A stretch of 64,000 nt of DNA from an uncultured bacterium (GTDB lineage Bacteria > Caldisericota > Caldisericia > JAAYUI01): NCBI GenBank assembly GCA_965370295.1, contig CBDUSO010000003.1, forward strand, positions 7,059 through 71,058, read 5' to 3'. The translations under genes and the position numbers were made by a program. How positions within the stretch are numbered: position 1 is the stretch's first letter; every line of letters starts with the position of its first letter. This document shows positions 51,691-59,035 of the stretch, piece by piece. Under the pieces are notes generated by a model. It ran no database searches and was not told the origin of the DNA. It saw only the letters and a list, made by a program, of their open reading frames with translations.

Positions 51691-52107
51691 ATGCCAGAGA
51701 TTGGAGATTACAATCTGCCAGAGGACCTTTATTACCACAAGGAACATTTTTGGGTAAAGGTAGACGGAAACACGGCCATTGTTGGAATGGATGATTTCGG
51801 AACAAAGCTTGCCGGTGAAATCTCTTTCATTGAACTTCCAATGGAAGACGACGAGGTTGGTTTTGATGAGCAGGTGGGTTCACTTGAAACAGGTAAGTGG
51901 TTGGGAAAAATTTACAGCCCAGTATCTGGAACAGTTTCAGCTCTCAACGAAGACATCGAGGATGATCCTGCAATCGTAAACGAATCACCATACGAAAACT
52001 GGCTTTTCAAAGTTGAAATGGGCGACAAGTCCGAACTTGAAAAGTTGATCACAGGTGCAGCTATTGCCCCGTGGCTCGAAAAAGAAATTGAAGAGCGTGG
52101 AAAGTAA
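51691..52107 (+). CDS. GcvH-like lipoyl-carrier paralog 3
   Basis: …VGSLETGKWLGKIYSPVSGTV… with a GAAGGAGG RBS. Its 3' end overlaps the start of the large membrane protein gene. Confidence 0.6.
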   Translation: MPEIGDYNLPEDLYYHKEHFWVKVDGNTAIVGMDDFGTKLAGEISFIELPMEDDEVGFDEQVGSLETGKWLGKIYSPVSGTVSALNEDIEDDPAIVNESPYENWLFKVEMGDKSELEKLITGAAIAPWLEKEIEERGK

Positions 52108-54805
52108 AAAGAAGTTCAAGGGGGCGGGATTATTTCTCGCTCTCTTTCTGATTCTTACACTCATCTTTCCGTTTTTTCCACCCGCAAATGCTCAGCAGAA
52201 ACCCAATGTCCAAAAACTCGTTGCATACTTCGTGCTTAAATCTGATGGAAGTGCAAGGGTCAAATTAAACCTTCAAATAAAAGAGACCGAATCAAGAAGC
52301 TCTCTTGTTTTAGGTCCATTCATGTCTGGTTATTCAAATCTTACAGCTGTAATCTACAAAGGCTCTTTGGACGGCTTTATTTTAGATACCAATTTAAGCT
52401 CTGTCCCTGTTTCAGTCAGTAACTACGATGGAAACATCAAGCAATTCAATTATTCCAGCTCCTCTTCGTACAACGAAACCTATGTTATTCACCTTGAATA
52501 TAATCTCCCCGATATTTCCGTCAAAAGTTTCATGAATGGTTACAGGGATATTGGCTGGTCACCGTTTCAAGCATCTCAAACAATTGACAACGTTATTGTC
52601 CAAGTTGTTTTGCCAATATCGTTACCAGATGACGTTGATACTCCGGAAGAGGTAACGAGCGATCTGGTCAACGAAAAAGGTTTCATCATGGCAACCGACT
52701 CGTCTGGTGACTCAAAAACCTCTGACAAAAAATTTGACAGATTTGTTTTTTTCCCGACACCAGACAGTGCAAGTGGAATGAATTTCCTCTCATTCCATGC
52801 TGAGAAAAAAAATGCACCAGCATATTTTCATGCTCAGGTAACATTCAGTCTCCCCGAGAAATATTTTGGTGGAACACTTCCAGATGAAGTTATAAAGAAA
52901 ATTTTCAAACTAAATGTTTCAACGATTGCAGATGGTTTGAACGATATAACAGTTCTTAACACACCAAACATGACCTCCACAAAAAAAATCATCATCACAC
53001 GAAGAATTGGTGATGGTGTTGAAGAACTTGTTACGGGTGAACTCAAGGAAGATGGATTTGAGAAGTATTCAGTTACCGATAACTATGACCCGACAACTTT
53101 GGAATCAATCACCTATAAAGCCTATCTGTTGAAGGTTCCAAGAGACAAAAAAGACCGATTTCAGAAGCTGAGATATGTGAGTTTTGATGTTGGACGACTC
53201 AAAGCAGAATTTGAAATTCTCAGCTCCACTCAAGAGGTCTCTTTTGAGCAGGCACCTGGACAGTCAGTTCTTTCTGCGAAGCTGGACATCACGCTTGACA
53301 AAAAGGGAACTGCAATCGTAAAGGTTGAGAGAGATTCTCTCTTTAAGGGCGATCAGAGTCTCTGGAGTGATTGTCTGCACTTTGATTTTGATGATTATCA
53401 ATATCTCACGGATTGCTGGTTTACAGATTTCAAAGATGACAAGAAAAACGAGTATATCTTGTCCTCCAGGGGATCAGAGGGAACATACAATATAAGCCCT
53501 GAAATTGGCTGGGTCGATTGGTATTGGGGTGCTTACAACGAGACTCGTCATTTTGAATATGGATACAAAATCTATGGCTCTTTTGTAAAAACTAATGATT
53601 GGTCGACGAACGAGGAAAAGCAGGAAATTTTATTGCTTCCACTCATAAGTGCCGGTGTTTCAAACATTCCAAAACTTGAAGTAATCATAACCGTACCAGA
53701 TGGATTCCCTGCACCAACCTTTTCTGAGGGTCTGGAAAATGTAGCAGTTGAAACAAGTGGCAACACACACAACTTTATTTTAAGTGGCAATCAGGTTGAC
53801 GATTATTCCAGCATGATGTTCCCAGAGGGTACGTTCAAAAAAGGCTTACTTTGGTCCAGGTGGTGGATTGACCATAAGGGAACCATCTATTTCTGGTTGT
53901 TTGTGTTGCTCATTTTCCTGTTCACCTATTGGTTGATAAGCAGAGGAAAGAGGGCGGGTCGAAGAAATTTGATCAAAAAGGCTACCAAATATGAGTCTCC
54001 TGAGATTGAACTTGAAACCTACACGATTGAGGGGAAAGTTCCTGATCTTTCTGCAATTGAAACCGCAATGTATCTTGGCAAACATGACAAGGTCATCGCT
54101 GGAATTGTGTTGCAACTGTCAGCTAAAGGTGCGATAACGATCATCACTCACAGACCGCTTCAACTCGAAAAAACAAATCCAAAACTGGCAACAGAGCCTT
54201 ACGAAAAAGTTCTGATGGAAAACATTTCCCCCGAAGGAACAATCTCAAGAGAAGCCGTCCCAAAAATTATTGACTCAGTTTCAAAAGAACTCTCAGTCAA
54301 GATTTGGGATGCTGACCCAACTGCAACCAGAACGCATTACACCAATGTTGTGAAAAAACGCTGGGATGACATACTCACAGATTCAACTCCAAGGAATTCA
54401 TCATACTTCCAAAGAAACATGGCATGGCTTATCATTCACAATGATTACGCCAAAAATTTCAATAAAATTCCAAAAGCCCAACGACCCAAGACGGACAGTT
54501 GGGCTGTTAAGGCTGTTGACGGAATTGAAGATTTCACTGAGGGAATTGTCTCCAGTGTCCAAAGTTCCGTTGCAAAGGCAACAAACGCAATTGAACAGGC
54601 ACTTGGTTTGGGAACTCCAAACGTAGAAAATCTGTCATACGATGCCTGCCATTCCGCTTGTCATTCAGCCTGCCACAGTGCTTGTGTGCATGATGCCTGC
54701 CATTCTGCTTGTGTTCATTCAGCCTGCCATTCTGCCTGCCACTCTGCCTGCGTCCATTCTGCCTGCCATTCTGCCTGCCATTCAGCCTGTGTATCGGGAA
54801 TCTGA
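52097..54805 (+). CDS. single-pass membrane protein (DUF2207-like architecture?) with cytoplasmic C-terminal (AC[V]HS)x12 Cys/His repeat tail; candidate substrate of the downstream radical SAM enzyme
   Basis: From GTG 52097 the product begins with a signal peptide, [32 protein letters not shown]. The track ORF instead starts at GTG 52055. About 590 aa are extracytoplasmic, followed by a TM helix [18 protein letters not shown] and then SRGKRAGRR (positive-inside). The cytoplasmic domain is about 290 aa and ends …[58 protein letters not shown]. Confidence 0.6.
   Translation: [902 protein letters not shown]
54644..54792 (+). repeat. tandem 12-nt coding repeats (gcctgccattct variants, about 12 units) encoding the AC(V)HS tail
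   Basis: Periodicity is directly visible in the sequence. Antisense and out-of-frame ORFs over this stretch (54534..54893 -, 54642..54839 +) are artefacts of the repeat. Confidence 0.85.
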
Positions 54806-57844: not shown

Positions 57845-57883
57845 ATAAGTAGTATGTGATTAGAAATATCTGAGGAGGTTTTG

Positions 57884-59035
57884 ATGAGAGGATTATTGAT
57901 TTGTACGGTGGTTGTGATGTTGGTGTCTACGTTGATTTCATGTGGCGGAGTTGGCGTAAACAGCTACTCGCTTGATGGTATCCAGTTGTCTGCTGGCGGT
58001 AGTAGTGAAGCTGTGTTTGTGGCAAAAGAAAATGATTCATCAGATGAAAAAGCAGAACAGACACAGGCAATTTCTTTTGCTTTGAATAATGCGATAAAGG
58101 ATAGACCAGACCTTGCTTTGATGCTTGAAGCTGACATTGTTGATGATGAAAATAATTTTCTTTTCATGGGTTCAGACCATTTTCTCAAAACCCTACAATC
58201 CTTTGCAGATGAAAACTATCCTAAAGCAAAGAAGATGTTTCTAGAGATGACTTGTGAGGAGTTTTATTACTGCACTGCAGTTGGGTACGAAGTGGCAAAC
58301 TCAAATAATGTAAAAACAACATCTGTTGATGTATATATTGACACTGAGCATAAAAATATAGATATAAACCCATCATTTGAAGATATAATAAATCATGGAT
58401 TCTGGGCTACATACTTTGCCAGAATCCATGATTTATTGATCAATGATATTGGTGTTATATCTGAAGATATTGTGTTAGATAACTCACTTGATATGGAATC
58501 TCATGGTATATCATTTGATTCTACAGCAGATATTATACAATTATCTATTATCAATCTTAGTATGGATTGTTTAATCCATAACACGATACAAAATTTTCCT
58601 GAACTGAAAAAAGATGGTCGTGGTTTGGTAAACCAGTTGATGACCCATAAGATGTTGGATCATCTCCAACTATATGGATTTGAAAAGAAACTTTTTACAA
58701 GTTACAGAAGTCGTTTCTCTGAGATTGGCACACAGACCCACTATATGTTATTACTTATCAAAATAAACACCAATCCAGGCGAGAAACAACTACGAATCGG
58801 AGACATATTTGCTGCGAATGGTGAATATCTTTTCCAACTTAGTAAGGGATATGGTATGCATAAATCTGATGCAGAAGGAATAAATGAATCTATTATGGGC
58901 ATGTTTATAGGTGGGAATGATGTTGTAAAATTAGGACATAGGTGGGACAAATGGTTTCGAGATGAGTATCCAAATCCGAATGATAACAAGTTGTACAAAG
59001 GATTATTACAGAATTTAAGTCTTAAAATCCCATAA
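57884..59035 (+). CDS. lipoprotein, unknown function
   Basis: GAGGAGG RBS upstream. Lipobox LISCGG. 383 aa. Confidence 0.5.
   Translation: MRGLLICTVVVMLVSTLISCGGVGVNSYSLDGIQLSAGGSSEAVFVAKENDSSDEKAEQTQAISFALNNAIKDRPDLALMLEADIVDDENNFLFMGSDHFLKTLQSFADENYPKAKKMFLEMTCEEFYYCTAVGYEVANSNNVKTTSVDVYIDTEHKNIDINPSFEDIINHGFWATYFARIHDLLINDIGVISEDIVLDNSLDMESHGISFDSTADIIQLSIINLSMDCLIHNTIQNFPELKKDGRGLVNQLMTHKMLDHLQLYGFEKKLFTSYRSRFSEIGTQTHYMLLLIKINTNPGEKQLRIGDIFAANGEYLFQLSKGYGMHKSDAEGINESIMGMFIGGNDVVKLGHRWDKWFRDEYPNPNDNKLYKGLLQNLSLKIP

What the first reader, a model, noticed from the sequence alone, without database searches (positions are those of the whole stretch)
51691..59035. Candidate novel RiPP-like system: RRE-radical SAM/SPASM enzyme translationally coupled to a 900-aa membrane protein ending in an (AC[V]HS)x12 Cys/His repeat tail
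The sequence shows the following.

(i) A large gene whose product has a signal peptide, a ~590-aa extracytoplasmic domain, one TM helix, and a ~290-aa cytoplasmic domain. That domain terminates in about 12 tandem AC(V)HS units, written as perfect 12-nt DNA repeats.

(ii) Its TGA stop overlaps (TGATG) the ATG of a gene encoding a PqqD-like RRE domain, a CxxxCxxC radical SAM core and a 7-Cys SPASM domain. This is the architecture of sactipeptide, ranthipeptide and QhpD-type thioether-forming maturases.

(iii) Three further tightly packed genes follow: a coiled-coil protein, a 2-TM protein with a zinc ribbon, and a lipoprotein. A divergent GcvH-like lipoyl-carrier gene overlaps the 5' end.

RRE-rSAM-SPASM enzymes are established to bind a peptide leader and install crosslinks on Cys-containing cores. 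Here the apparent substrate is not a small precursor peptide but the C-terminal tail of a full-size membrane protein, and the repeat (A-C-H-S) matches no motif I know. The closest conceptual parallels are the His-Xaa-Ser repeat (Hxs) rSAM systems and QhpC/QhpD.

Inference: the rSAM enzyme post-translationally crosslinks or modifies the Cys/His tail, perhaps creating a metal-binding or redox-active appendage on the cytoplasmic face of a membrane sensor/anchor.
Basis: partly seen in the sequence, partly recalled or inferred. Interest (0 to 1): 0.88.

Follow-up and report, generated by a model that had tools for sequence, protein, structure and literature searches.

The report
Membrane protein tail with radical-SAM maturase
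A membrane protein ends in a cysteine/histidine repeat tail that is almost identical across distant bacteria and archaea and nearly always sits beside its own radical-SAM enzyme, which points to an undescribed, widespread protein-modification system whose chemistry and role are still unknown.

Summary
Window 52097-54805 encodes a membrane protein with a signal peptide and one TM helix. Its cytoplasmic C-terminus is ...[55 protein letters not shown] (12 Cys, 11 His). Its TGA overlaps the ATG of a PqqD/RRE-radical SAM-SPASM enzyme.

The window is from a Caldisericales bacterium. The same enzyme occurs in 266 species genomes: Caldisericota, Chloroflexota, Armatimonadota and Thermoproteota archaea. 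In 63 of 80 fetched loci a homologous tailed protein lies nearby, directly upstream in 52.

The ~57-aa tail is the most conserved part of the protein. Forty of 57 positions are invariant, including every Cys and its following His, while synonymous sites are saturated. It is therefore not slippage noise.

Remote homologues carry other Cys-repeat tails (ACHD, CACACA, CVCACVS). Each of five examined also had a radical SAM/SPASM gene, adjacent or within 2.7 kb, and enzyme clades track tail class.

A coiled-coil protein and a 2-TM/zinc-ribbon protein complete the conserved module. GcvH and the lipoprotein are lineage-specific.

No curated family covers the module proteins, and public names seen are 'hypothetical protein'. 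Most likely the enzyme modifies the tail Cys residues, probably forming thioether crosslinks. That chemistry is inferred, not shown.

The parts
52097..54805 (+). Carrier membrane protein (902 aa from the probable GTG start). Layout: signal peptide, extracytoplasmic beta-sandwich domain plus a lineage-specific insertion, one TM helix, a cytoplasmic helical domain, a linker helix, and the Cys/His tail.
   Evidence: ORF and translation. Start context. TM and signal segments. Homologues lie next to the rSAM gene in 63 of 80 loci. AF2 gives pLDDT >90 for residues 30-260 and 650-790. No Pfam or NCBIfam hit.
53882..53938 (+). Single transmembrane helix (residues 596-614), followed by a basic stretch ([17 protein letters not shown]). 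This places the C-terminal part in the cytoplasm.
   Evidence: Hydropathy scan. Helix in the AF2 model.
54044..54466 (+). Conserved cytoplasmic domain (about residues 650-790): helices plus a beta-hairpin, with a GOLPH3/Vps74-like fold.
54500..54604 (+). Amphipathic linker helix (residues 802-836, ...[27 protein letters not shown]...). It is a candidate recognition ('leader-like') element for the RRE.
   Evidence: Predicted helix. A related (I/V)E-x-F...V..(I/V)E motif lies upstream of the tail in all tail classes. Its role is inferred.
54638..54802 (+). Cys/His repeat tail [55 protein letters not shown] (12 Cys, 11 His). Proposed substrate of the rSAM enzyme.
   Evidence: Near-invariant in 67 tails from four phyla, with saturated synonymous sites. 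Most conserved part of the protein. AF2 pLDDT <50.
54805..56187 (+). RRE(PqqD-like)-radical SAM-SPASM enzyme, 460 aa. Its ATG overlaps the stop codon of the carrier gene.
   Evidence: Pfam. Below every NCBIfam cut-off; the best is AhbD at 141 bits against 500. 2520 homologues at E<=1e-10. Invariant CX3CX2C, GGEPT and 7 SPASM Cys. Best solved relatives are SkfB, Tes, PqqE, CteB and SuiB.
54895..55065 (+). PqqD-like RiPP-recognition element within the enzyme (residues 31-87).
   Evidence: Pfam PF05402, 23.9 bits against a cut-off of 23.4. PF05402 is precomputed on most homologues.
55171..55194 (+). CX3CX2C radical-SAM cluster motif (C123, C127, C130).
   Evidence: Invariant columns in alignment A1.
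55813..56064 (+). SPASM region holding seven invariant Cys (C337, C351, C369, C406, C409, C415, C419).
   Evidence: Pfam SPASM. TIGR04085, 51 bits. Invariant columns.
56188..57345 (+). Conserved soluble coiled-coil/helical protein, 385 aa.
   Evidence: Homologue follows the rSAM gene in most ACHS-class loci, including the archaeal ones. Only weak coiled-coil and apolipoprotein-like matches.
57338..57844 (+). Conserved 2-TM protein with a cytoplasmic winged-helix-like segment and a C-terminal zinc ribbon (CxxCG...CxxCG), 168 aa.
   Evidence: Analogous 2-TM/zinc-ribbon genes occur in CACACA-class loci L088 and L093.
51691..52107 (+). GcvH paralogue translationally coupled to the carrier gene. 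A lineage-specific neighbour, not part of the conserved module.
   Evidence: Present only in Caldisericales loci.
57881..59035 (+). Lipoprotein, 384 aa. Lineage-specific and not part of the conserved module.
   Evidence: Lipobox in the translation. Only 30-37% identical homologues, found in a few Caldisericales loci. No family hit.

Best explanation
This is a conserved module of three to four genes. A membrane-anchored carrier protein presents a cytoplasmic Cys/His repeat tail to a dedicated RRE-radical SAM-SPASM enzyme, which modifies the tail after translation.

Proposed steps:
1. The carrier inserts with its beta-sandwich domain outside and its helical domain and tail inside the cell. This is shown by sequence and model.
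2. The enzyme's PqqD-like RRE docks on the conserved amphipathic linker just upstream of the tail. This is inferred.
3. The radical SAM core, helped by two auxiliary clusters in the SPASM domain, acts repeatedly along the Cys repeat. The most likely product is a set of Cys-derived thioether (sactionine- or ranthionine-type) crosslinks that turn a floppy tail into a rigid, defined structure. This chemistry is inferred from the enzyme class and the Cys-only common denominator of the tail classes.
4. The product stays attached to the protein. It acts with the coiled-coil and 2-TM/zinc-ribbon partners at the inner face of the membrane, perhaps as a metal- or redox-responsive element. The biological role is unknown.
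For: **Gene linkage**
- The carrier stop and enzyme start overlap (TGATG).
- The tail gene is directly upstream of the enzyme gene, with a 0-294 bp gap, in 52 of 80 species loci. It lies within 7.5 kb or downstream in 11 more. Six loci with adequate flanks lack it; two of the loci scored as truncated show a tail motif at the edge of the fetched DNA.
- The linkage spans Caldisericota, Chloroflexota, Armatimonadota and Thermoproteota.

**Selection on the tail**
- Forty of 57 tail positions are invariant, including all 13 Cys and the His that follows each.
- Mean pairwise pS is 0.78, and both Ser codon families are used at the same positions.
- The tail is more conserved than the rest of the protein, with a majority-residue fraction of 0.81-0.96.

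**Generality across the superfamily**
- Remote homologues with other Cys-repeat tails each have a radical SAM/SPASM gene, adjacent in four of five loci examined and 2.7 kb away in the fifth.
- Enzyme identity tracks tail class: 50-52% within the ACHS class, 40-42% to the ACHD and GGWG classes, and 29-38% to the CA classes.

**Enzyme competence and class**
- The enzyme keeps CX3CX2C, GGEPT, seven SPASM Cys and an RRE.
- Its nearest solved relatives include the thioether-forming SkfB and CteB.
- Cytoplasmic placement of the tail fits a cytoplasmic Fe-S enzyme.
Against: - No modification has been observed. The evidence is gene context and co-variation only.
- The best-scoring curated models for the enzyme are tetrapyrrole enzymes (AhbD, NirJ2), not peptide maturases, and all are far below cut-off.
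- Six loci with adequate flanks lack a tail gene nearby. Separately, two metagenome-derived loci of rSAM homologues (L006, L007) carry an ABC transporter after the enzyme and no tail gene in the fetched DNA.
- Extreme invariance of a 'core' is unusual for RiPP-like substrates. It would equally fit an unmodified metal-binding motif.
- AF2 gives no confident structure for the tail.
- The PqqD match is only marginal in the window protein.
Confidence: 0.55

Rival explanations
1. The enzyme does modify the tail, but the chemistry is not thioether formation. Candidates are epimerisation of alternate residues, Cys-to-formylglycine or dehydro-residue oxidation, or C-C or C-N crosslinks involving His.
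For: - rSAM/SPASM enzymes are known to perform all these reactions (established knowledge: anSME, YydG/EpeE, PqqE, StrB, triceptide enzymes).
- The enzyme is below cut-off for every curated thioether maturase: StsB 107 bits against 625, SkfB 83 against 300.
- Strictly periodic tails (period 4 here, period 2 in the CACACA class) would suit a processive, register-dependent reaction.
Against: - Cys is the only residue shared by all tail classes; His is absent from the CA classes. This points to Cys-centred chemistry.
- The nearest solved relatives include thioether formers.
Confidence: 0.22
2. The tail is an unmodified metal-, Fe-S- or thiol-based redox-binding module of the membrane protein. The neighbouring enzyme has another substrate, such as the zinc-ribbon protein, the coiled-coil protein or a small molecule. 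Alternatively it uses the tail only as a cluster, electron or sulfur donor.
For: - Twelve to thirteen Cys, each followed by His, at i/i+4 spacing would chelate soft metals.
- Extreme sequence invariance fits a precise coordination geometry.
- The enzyme's best HMM scores are to cofactor-type enzymes (AhbD, NirJ2, PqqE).
- L006 and L007 keep the enzyme, coiled-coil and (L007 only) zinc-ribbon genes without a nearby tail gene.
Against: - The enzyme carries an RRE, a peptide-binding domain.
- Enzyme clades co-vary with tail class, including His-free CA tails.
- The stop/start overlap and near-universal adjacency apply to the tail gene.
Confidence: 0.15
3. The membrane protein is a scaffold for a released product. 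The modified tail is cleaved off and used as a diffusible peptide or cofactor, as with PQQ, mycofactocin or SCIFF-type peptides.
For: - An invariant core with a dedicated rSAM is the pattern of peptide-derived cofactors (established knowledge: PqqA/PqqE, MftA/MftC).
- Some loci add an ABC transporter (L006, L007) or a secreted HEFQH metalloprotease-like gene (L018 subclade).
Against: - No protease or exporter is conserved across the module.
- The carrier's other domains are conserved and always fused to the tail.
- The window locus has no peptidase.
Confidence: 0.06
4. The tail is a low-complexity by-product of DNA slippage with no specific function.
For: Short-period DNA repeats are detected by TRF. 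One ACHS unit is gained or lost among close relatives.
Against: - The amino-acid sequence is near-invariant across phyla while codons are randomised, with pS 0.78 and TCN and AGY Ser codons at the same sites.
- The irregular V/D interruptions are conserved in position.
Confidence: 0.01

Closest known systems
Haft's 'CXXX repeat' radical SAM system (NCBIfam TIGR04117 target protein, TIGR04119 CXXX repeat peptide maturase; Pfam PF27846)
   Same: A Cys-every-fourth-residue repeat region is encoded beside a SPASM-type maturase. ACHD-type tails of remote homologues give weak TIGR04117 and PF27846 hits.
   Different: - The window tail gives no TIGR04117 hit even at E<=10.
- The window enzyme scores 19.4 bits against a cut-off of 150 on TIGR04119.
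- TIGR04117 models a ~98-residue protein, not a 600-900-aa membrane protein.
- That system is itself only a bioinformatic prediction, as far as I know.
SCIFF / ranthipeptide systems (CteA-CteB, Tte1186) and freyrasin PapA-PapB
   Same: An RRE-rSAM-SPASM enzyme works with a Cys-rich C-terminal core. SCIFF is also unusually conserved for a RiPP, and PapB acts repeatedly on a periodic Cys motif (own knowledge). CteB (5wgg) is among the solved relatives.
   Different: - No curated ranthipeptide or sactipeptide model is reached.
- The substrate is not a ~45-aa peptide but the tail of a membrane protein.
- No leader peptidase or exporter is conserved.
- The partner genes (coiled-coil, 2-TM zinc ribbon) are different.
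QhpD acting on QhpC (quinohemoprotein amine dehydrogenase gamma subunit)
   Same: An rSAM/SPASM enzyme installs several Cys thioether crosslinks in a polypeptide that remains a functional protein component rather than a released natural product (own knowledge).
   Different: - QhpC is a small soluble/periplasmic subunit of an enzyme with a quinone cofactor.
- No amine dehydrogenase genes are in this locus.
- No periodic repeat is involved.
- Here the product would stay cytoplasmic and membrane-tethered.
His-Xaa-Ser (Hxs) and ACGX repeat rSAM systems
   Same: Short-period repeat targets are paired with rSAM/SPASM enzymes. The enzyme has partial HMM similarity to these families.
   Different: - Scores are far below cut-off: HxsC 90.7 bits against 267.9, HxsC4 98.8 against 500, ACGX 87.9 against 400.
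- The repeat here is A-C-H-S, not H-x-S or A-C-G-x.
- There are no HxsB or HxsD partners.
TIGR04222 / DUF2207-type membrane proteins with low-complexity C-terminal tails; GOLPH3/Vps74 (GPP34) fold
   Different: - The window protein hits neither Pfam nor NCBIfam models.
- The TIGR04222 hit is below cut-off (21.6 bits against 43).
- The structural similarity is moderate and says nothing about function.

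Membership tests
RRE-radical SAM-SPASM peptide/protein maturases (general class) | CX3CX2C cluster motif and SAM-binding GGEPT-type motif | tested here: met
   Pfam Radical_SAM at 106 bits. C123/C127/C130 and GGEPT are invariant in A1.
RRE-radical SAM-SPASM peptide/protein maturases (general class) | SPASM domain with the 7-Cys auxiliary-cluster motif | tested here: met
   Pfam SPASM at 36 bits. TIGR04085 at 51 bits against a cut-off of 27. Seven invariant Cys, including CX2CX5CX3C.
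RRE-radical SAM-SPASM peptide/protein maturases (general class) | N-terminal PqqD-like RiPP recognition element | tested here: met
   PF05402 at 23.9 bits against a cut-off of 23.4, which is marginal. PF05402 is precomputed on most homologues.
RRE-radical SAM-SPASM peptide/protein maturases (general class) | Genomically linked substrate polypeptide | tested here: met
   The tail gene is adjacent or nearby in 63 of 80 species loci. The same holds in five other tail-class loci.
RRE-radical SAM-SPASM peptide/protein maturases (general class) | Demonstrated enzyme-dependent covalent modification of that substrate | not testable with these tools
   Needs co-expression or reconstitution followed by mass spectrometry.
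CXXX repeat peptide system (TIGR04117 / TIGR04119 / PF27846) | Target protein reaches the TIGR04117 cut-off (50 bits) | tested here: not met
   The window tail gives no hit at E<=10. ACHD-type relatives score 14-19 bits.
CXXX repeat peptide system (TIGR04117 / TIGR04119 / PF27846) | Maturase reaches the TIGR04119 cut-off (150 bits) | tested here: not met
   19.4 bits on the C-terminal part of the window enzyme.
CXXX repeat peptide system (TIGR04117 / TIGR04119 / PF27846) | Cys at period 4 in a C-terminal repeat | tested here: met
   Direct reading of the tail.
Sactipeptide / ranthipeptide maturases (AlbA, SkfB, StsB, CteB-type) | Score above the curated family cut-off | tested here: not met
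   StsB 107 bits against 625 and SkfB 82.9 against 300. PDB profile hits to SkfB and CteB show only superfamily-level similarity.
Sactipeptide / ranthipeptide maturases (AlbA, SkfB, StsB, CteB-type) | Short leader-core precursor peptide | tested here: not met
   The Cys-rich region is the C-terminus of a 570-940-aa membrane protein in all loci. No small precursor was seen upstream in L006 or L007.
Sactipeptide / ranthipeptide maturases (AlbA, SkfB, StsB, CteB-type) | Cys S to C-alpha/beta/gamma thioether product | not testable with these tools
   Requires MS/MS and NMR.
His-Xaa-Ser system | HxsC/HxsB-type enzymes above cut-off and a His-Xaa-Ser repeat target | tested here: not met
   HxsC 90.7 bits against 267.9 and HxsC4 98.8 against 500. 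The repeat is ACHS and contains no H-x-S unit.
ACGX repeat system (TIGR04340) | Enzyme above the 400-bit cut-off | tested here: not met
   87.9 bits.
DUF2207 / TIGR04222 membrane proteins | Match to the family HMM above cut-off | tested here: not met
   No Pfam or NCBIfam hit for the window protein, even at E<=10. Only a remote homologue, P0220, gives TIGR04222 at 21.6 bits against 43.
GPP34 (GOLPH3/Vps74) fold | Structural superposition of the cytoplasmic domain | tested here: inconclusive

The most novel reading that the evidence does not exclude
The radical SAM enzyme turns the invariant (ACHS)n tail into a protein-tethered, peptide-derived prosthetic structure, for example a polythioether ladder whose His and remaining S ligands hold a defined metal or redox centre. 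This structure is the working part of an ancient, previously unrecognised class of membrane devices shared by bacteria and archaea. That class includes the much larger CACACA-tailed group and is possibly coupled to Ser/Thr-kinase signalling in some lineages.
Probability: 0.25. Interest if true: 0.92.

Novelty: new variant of a known kind. Interest (0 to 1): 0.8.

Why it matters
**What would be new**
- If the enzyme really modifies the tail, RiPP-type radical SAM chemistry would be operating on the end of a full-size membrane protein.
- The system is conserved across at least three bacterial phyla and one archaeal phylum.
- Its target is under stronger selection than the enzyme itself.
- A sister superfamily of (CA)n-tailed proteins follows the same logic.

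**Why it is approachable**
- This would define a new family of protein post-translational modification, and probably a new tethered cofactor or structural element.
- It gives a clean, testable substrate-enzyme pair: a ~290-aa soluble cytoplasmic fragment plus one enzyme.
- It would put function on several hundred 'hypothetical proteins' from anaerobic, mostly uncultured lineages.

Tried and rejected
**Searches that found nothing or could not run**
- The search for homologous proteins with the full-length carrier found nothing. The exhaustive HMMER search and a profile search later found 171 and 217 relatives, so one search was a failure of the word index, not real absence.
- Small precursor ORFs upstream of the enzyme in L006 and L007: none convincing.
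- Pfam and NCBIfam scans of the carrier split into domains, of the tail alone, of the coiled-coil protein and of the zinc-ribbon protein gave nothing above noise.
- Literature searches for the tail strings, for 'CXXX repeat' with 'radical SAM', and for SPASM with DUF2207 found no relevant paper. The Haft & Basu 2011 paper is not held.
- The afdb50 fold library was unavailable.

**Ideas considered and set aside**
- The overlapping CX3CH motifs as c-type heme sites. Rejected because the tail is cytoplasmic by topology, the motifs overlap at a density no multihaem protein reaches, and the sister classes lack His.
- GcvH, and so lipoyl chemistry, as part of the system. Rejected because GcvH is a neighbour only in Caldisericales.
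- The in-frame upstream TTG start of the enzyme (54709), which would overlap the tail. Rejected because all homologues start at the ATG-equivalent position.
- Foldseek on the full-length model. It only showed that the outside domain is a generic beta-sandwich, like the M1 aminopeptidase N-domain and ribophorin I, which is not informative for function.

Full report
**1. What is in the window**

On the + strand there is a tightly packed gene string:
- a GcvH paralogue, 51691-52107;
- a 902-aa membrane protein, with a probable GTG start at 52097 that overlaps the GcvH stop, ending at 54805;
- a 460-aa enzyme, 54805-56187, whose ATG shares the A of the preceding TGA (TGATG);
- a 385-aa helical protein, 56188-57345;
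- a 168-aa protein, 57338-57844, with an 8-nt overlap;
- a lipoprotein, 57881-59035.

The membrane protein has a signal peptide, one TM helix (residues 596-614) followed by a strongly basic stretch, and a ~288-aa cytoplasmic part. That part ends in [55 protein letters not shown]. The tail holds 12 of the protein's 14 Cys and 11 of its 22 His.

The enzyme matches Pfam Radical_SAM, SPASM and, marginally, PqqD. It keeps CX3CX2C, GGEPT and seven SPASM Cys.

The DNA repeats are imperfect. GcvH is co-directional and ordinary. Much of the long outside region is a lineage-specific insertion.

**2. The tail is not low-complexity noise**

Close relatives were fetched through the enzyme, at 96%, 77% and 64% enzyme identity. 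They keep the same gene order and the same tail, differing by at most one ACHS unit.

A scan of one genome per GTDB species found 266 genomes encoding a relative of the enzyme. The 80 best loci come from Caldisericales (the window's lineage, 63-79% identity), Anaerolineae and other Chloroflexota, Armatimonadota, and Thermoproteota/Nitrososphaerota archaea, all at ~47-53% identity.

In these loci a homologue of the membrane protein is placed as follows:

| Position of the tailed gene relative to the enzyme gene | Loci (of 80) |
|---|---|
| Directly upstream, gap 0-294 bp | 52 |
| Upstream, 0.8-7.5 kb away | 7 |
| Downstream, after the helical protein (the four archaeal loci) | 4 |
| Absent, with adequate flanks | 6 |
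| Absent, but flank truncated | 11 |

Two of the truncated loci show a tail motif at the contig edge.

The body of the protein is only ~30% identical between phyla. Even so, the last ~57 residues are almost the same everywhere: [28 protein letters not shown][DS][AN]CHSACHSAC[VDNH][15 protein letters not shown][SRNG]F.

In 50 gap-free tails, 40 of 57 positions are invariant, including all 13 Cys and the His after each. Yet every codon position uses several synonymous codons, Ser uses both TCN and AGY at the same sites, and mean pairwise pS is 0.78. The tail is the most conserved segment of the protein. Selection therefore acts on the peptide, including the positions of the irregular V/D interruptions.

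**3. The conserved module**

Besides the tailed carrier and the enzyme, two other proteins recur.
- The helical/coiled-coil protein is detected in most loci.
- The 2-TM protein, with a winged-helix-like segment and an invariant CxxCG...CxxCG zinc ribbon, is detected in most bacterial loci but was not found in the four archaeal loci.

GcvH and the lipoprotein are found only in Caldisericales relatives.

Variants exist:
- L006 and L007 insert an ABC transporter after the enzyme and have no carrier in the fetched DNA.
- L019 has an 885-aa secreted repeat protein between the carrier and the enzyme.

A large Ser/Thr kinase (Pkinase + AAA_16 + TPR) follows the module in Caldisericales. In the window it starts at ~61627, after MatE and a PP2C gene. 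The same kinase type follows the module in nine Chloroflexota loci. This is a lead, not an established part.

**4. A wider superfamily**

An exhaustive HMMER search of 1.84 billion cluster representatives found 171 relatives of the carrier. Their C-termini fall into classes:
- the canonical ACHS tail;
- [12 protein letters not shown]...VSGGAH;
- [31 protein letters not shown];
- SCACACACAGCACACAGGGR, the most numerous in the set classified;
- SCVCACVSCACACACVSCACACAGGG.

I examined five loci from these other classes. Four have a radical SAM/SPASM gene immediately next to the carrier, and the fifth has one 2.7 kb away. Two also have a 2-TM/zinc-ribbon gene.

The enzymes are homologous over their full length, including the N-terminal domain, and their identities track tail class:

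| Comparison | Enzyme identity |
|---|---|
| Within the ACHS class, across phyla | 50-52% |
| ACHS class to the ACHD and GGWG classes | 40-42% |
| ACHS class to the CA classes | 29-38% |
| Among the CA classes | 42-48% |

Cys is the only residue common to all tails. A related amphipathic motif ((I/V)E-x-F...V..(I/V)E) lies 20-45 residues upstream of the first tail Cys in all classes.

**5. Structure**

AF2 models the outside domain (residues 30-260) and the cytoplasmic domain (residues 650-790) with pLDDT >90, the linker as a long helix, and the tail with pLDDT <50.
- The outside domain is a generic beta-sandwich, like the M1 aminopeptidase N-domain and ribophorin I.

Profile searches against PDB sequences give only superfamily-level matches for the enzyme: SkfB, Tes, PqqE, CteB and SuiB. 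They give weak coiled-coil/apolipoprotein-like matches for the helical protein and weak winged-helix and zinc-ribbon matches for the 2-TM protein.

**6. How it most likely works**

*Shown:*
- a competent-looking RRE-rSAM-SPASM enzyme;
- its near-obligate genomic pairing with a cytoplasmic Cys-repeat tail;
- extreme purifying selection on that tail;
- co-variation of enzyme clade and tail class.

*Inferred:*
- The RRE binds the conserved linker helix.
- The enzyme works along the repeat and modifies Cys-centred positions.
- Thioether crosslinking is the most probable reaction, because this enzyme class does it on Cys-rich cores and Cys is the shared feature.
- The product stays on the protein, because no peptidase or exporter is conserved.

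The physiological role is unknown. Possibilities include a metal- or redox-responsive element at the membrane, or a structural device working with the coiled-coil and zinc-ribbon partners. I put ~0.8 on 'the tail and the enzyme are functional partners', ~0.55 on 'the enzyme covalently modifies the tail, most likely by thioethers', and lower values on the rivals listed.

**7. Comparison with what is known**

The enzyme is below every NCBIfam cut-off: AhbD 141 bits against 500, NirJ2, GeoRSP, PqqE, StsB, ScmE, HxsC, ACGX and SkfB. It scores 19.4 bits against 150 for the 'CXXX repeat peptide maturase' TIGR04119.

The window tail does not hit the 'Cys-Xaa-Xaa-Xaa repeat radical SAM target' model TIGR04117. 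Only ACHD-type relatives do, and only weakly. A recent Pfam entry, PF27846, is recorded on a few of those relatives.

The carrier, the helical protein and the zinc-ribbon protein match no Pfam or NCBIfam family. Public names for carrier relatives are all 'hypothetical protein'. No paper in the held library contains the tail sequence or describes the system.

The system works like SCIFF/ranthipeptide, freyrasin and QhpC/QhpD systems, and conceptually like Haft's CXXX-repeat prediction. It is not a member of any of those families by the tests available.

**8. Verdict**

This is a real, widespread and apparently undescribed system. It is a new variant of the known 'rSAM/SPASM enzyme plus Cys-rich target' theme, distinguished by three features:
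- a protein-tethered, membrane-anchored target;
- cross-domain near-invariance of that target;
- distinctive partner genes.

The chemistry and biology remain to be shown, and the pair is directly testable by co-expression and mass spectrometry.

Noticed in passing
window 49468-52107: There are three GcvH paralogues: two on the - strand (50794-51165 and 51172-51570) and one on the + strand (51691-52107). They sit next to the glycine dehydrogenase subunit genes. The arrangement is conserved in Caldisericales relatives, and the third GcvH is translationally coupled to the carrier gene.
   Followed up: partly
window 59461-64000: Downstream of the module lie a MatE transporter (59461-60873), a PP2C phosphatase on the - strand (60877-61620), and a large Ser/Thr kinase that runs off the window (from ~61627; Pkinase+AAA_16+TPR in relatives). 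A kinase of this type also directly follows the module in nine Chloroflexota loci (L019, L020, L028, L047, L057, L058, L066, L073, L083).
   Followed up: partly
L083 2500-3230: A small two-gene cassette follows the carrier gene; its 109-aa ORF looks like a MazF/PemK-type toxin by eye (not scanned against any family library). It is followed by a 42-aa ORF (3097-3225) that repeats the end of the tail ([42 protein letters not shown]). This looks like an insertion into the tail-coding region that left a duplicated remnant.
   Followed up: no
L093 4411-5574: In a CACACA-class locus the rSAM/SPASM gene is followed by a second, related 387-aa protein. Its translation shows no CX3CX2C motif, although JGI's precomputed Pfam still records a Radical_SAM hit, and its N-terminus resembles that of the other CA-class enzymes. 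It may be a catalytically dead paralogue acting as a partner.
   Followed up: no
L006 and L007, ~9400-12200: Two Anaerolineae loci carry an ABC ATPase and two ABC-2 permease genes between the enzyme and the coiled-coil gene, and have no carrier gene in the fetched DNA. L006 also lacks the zinc-ribbon gene, and its coiled-coil gene is shorter.
   Followed up: partly
L018 7927-9915 and about 23 other Anaerolineae loci: A ~660-aa secreted protein with an HEFQH metalloprotease-like motif follows the zinc-ribbon gene in one Anaerolineae subclade. Glycosyltransferase and WecB/TagA-like genes lie upstream. This is possibly only lineage synteny.
   Followed up: no
window 59047-59433: A 128-aa ORF has a YD/RHS-repeat-like sequence (TFTYYADGNRATKTTATEYIEYHYNGSLL...) and no family hit. 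It is possibly a gene fragment.
   Followed up: no
tool behaviour: The word-indexed homologue search returned nothing for the full-length carrier. Yet close homologues exist in the same collection, and both the exhaustive search and a profile search found them. A negative result from that tool for repeat-containing queries should not be trusted.
   Followed up: yes
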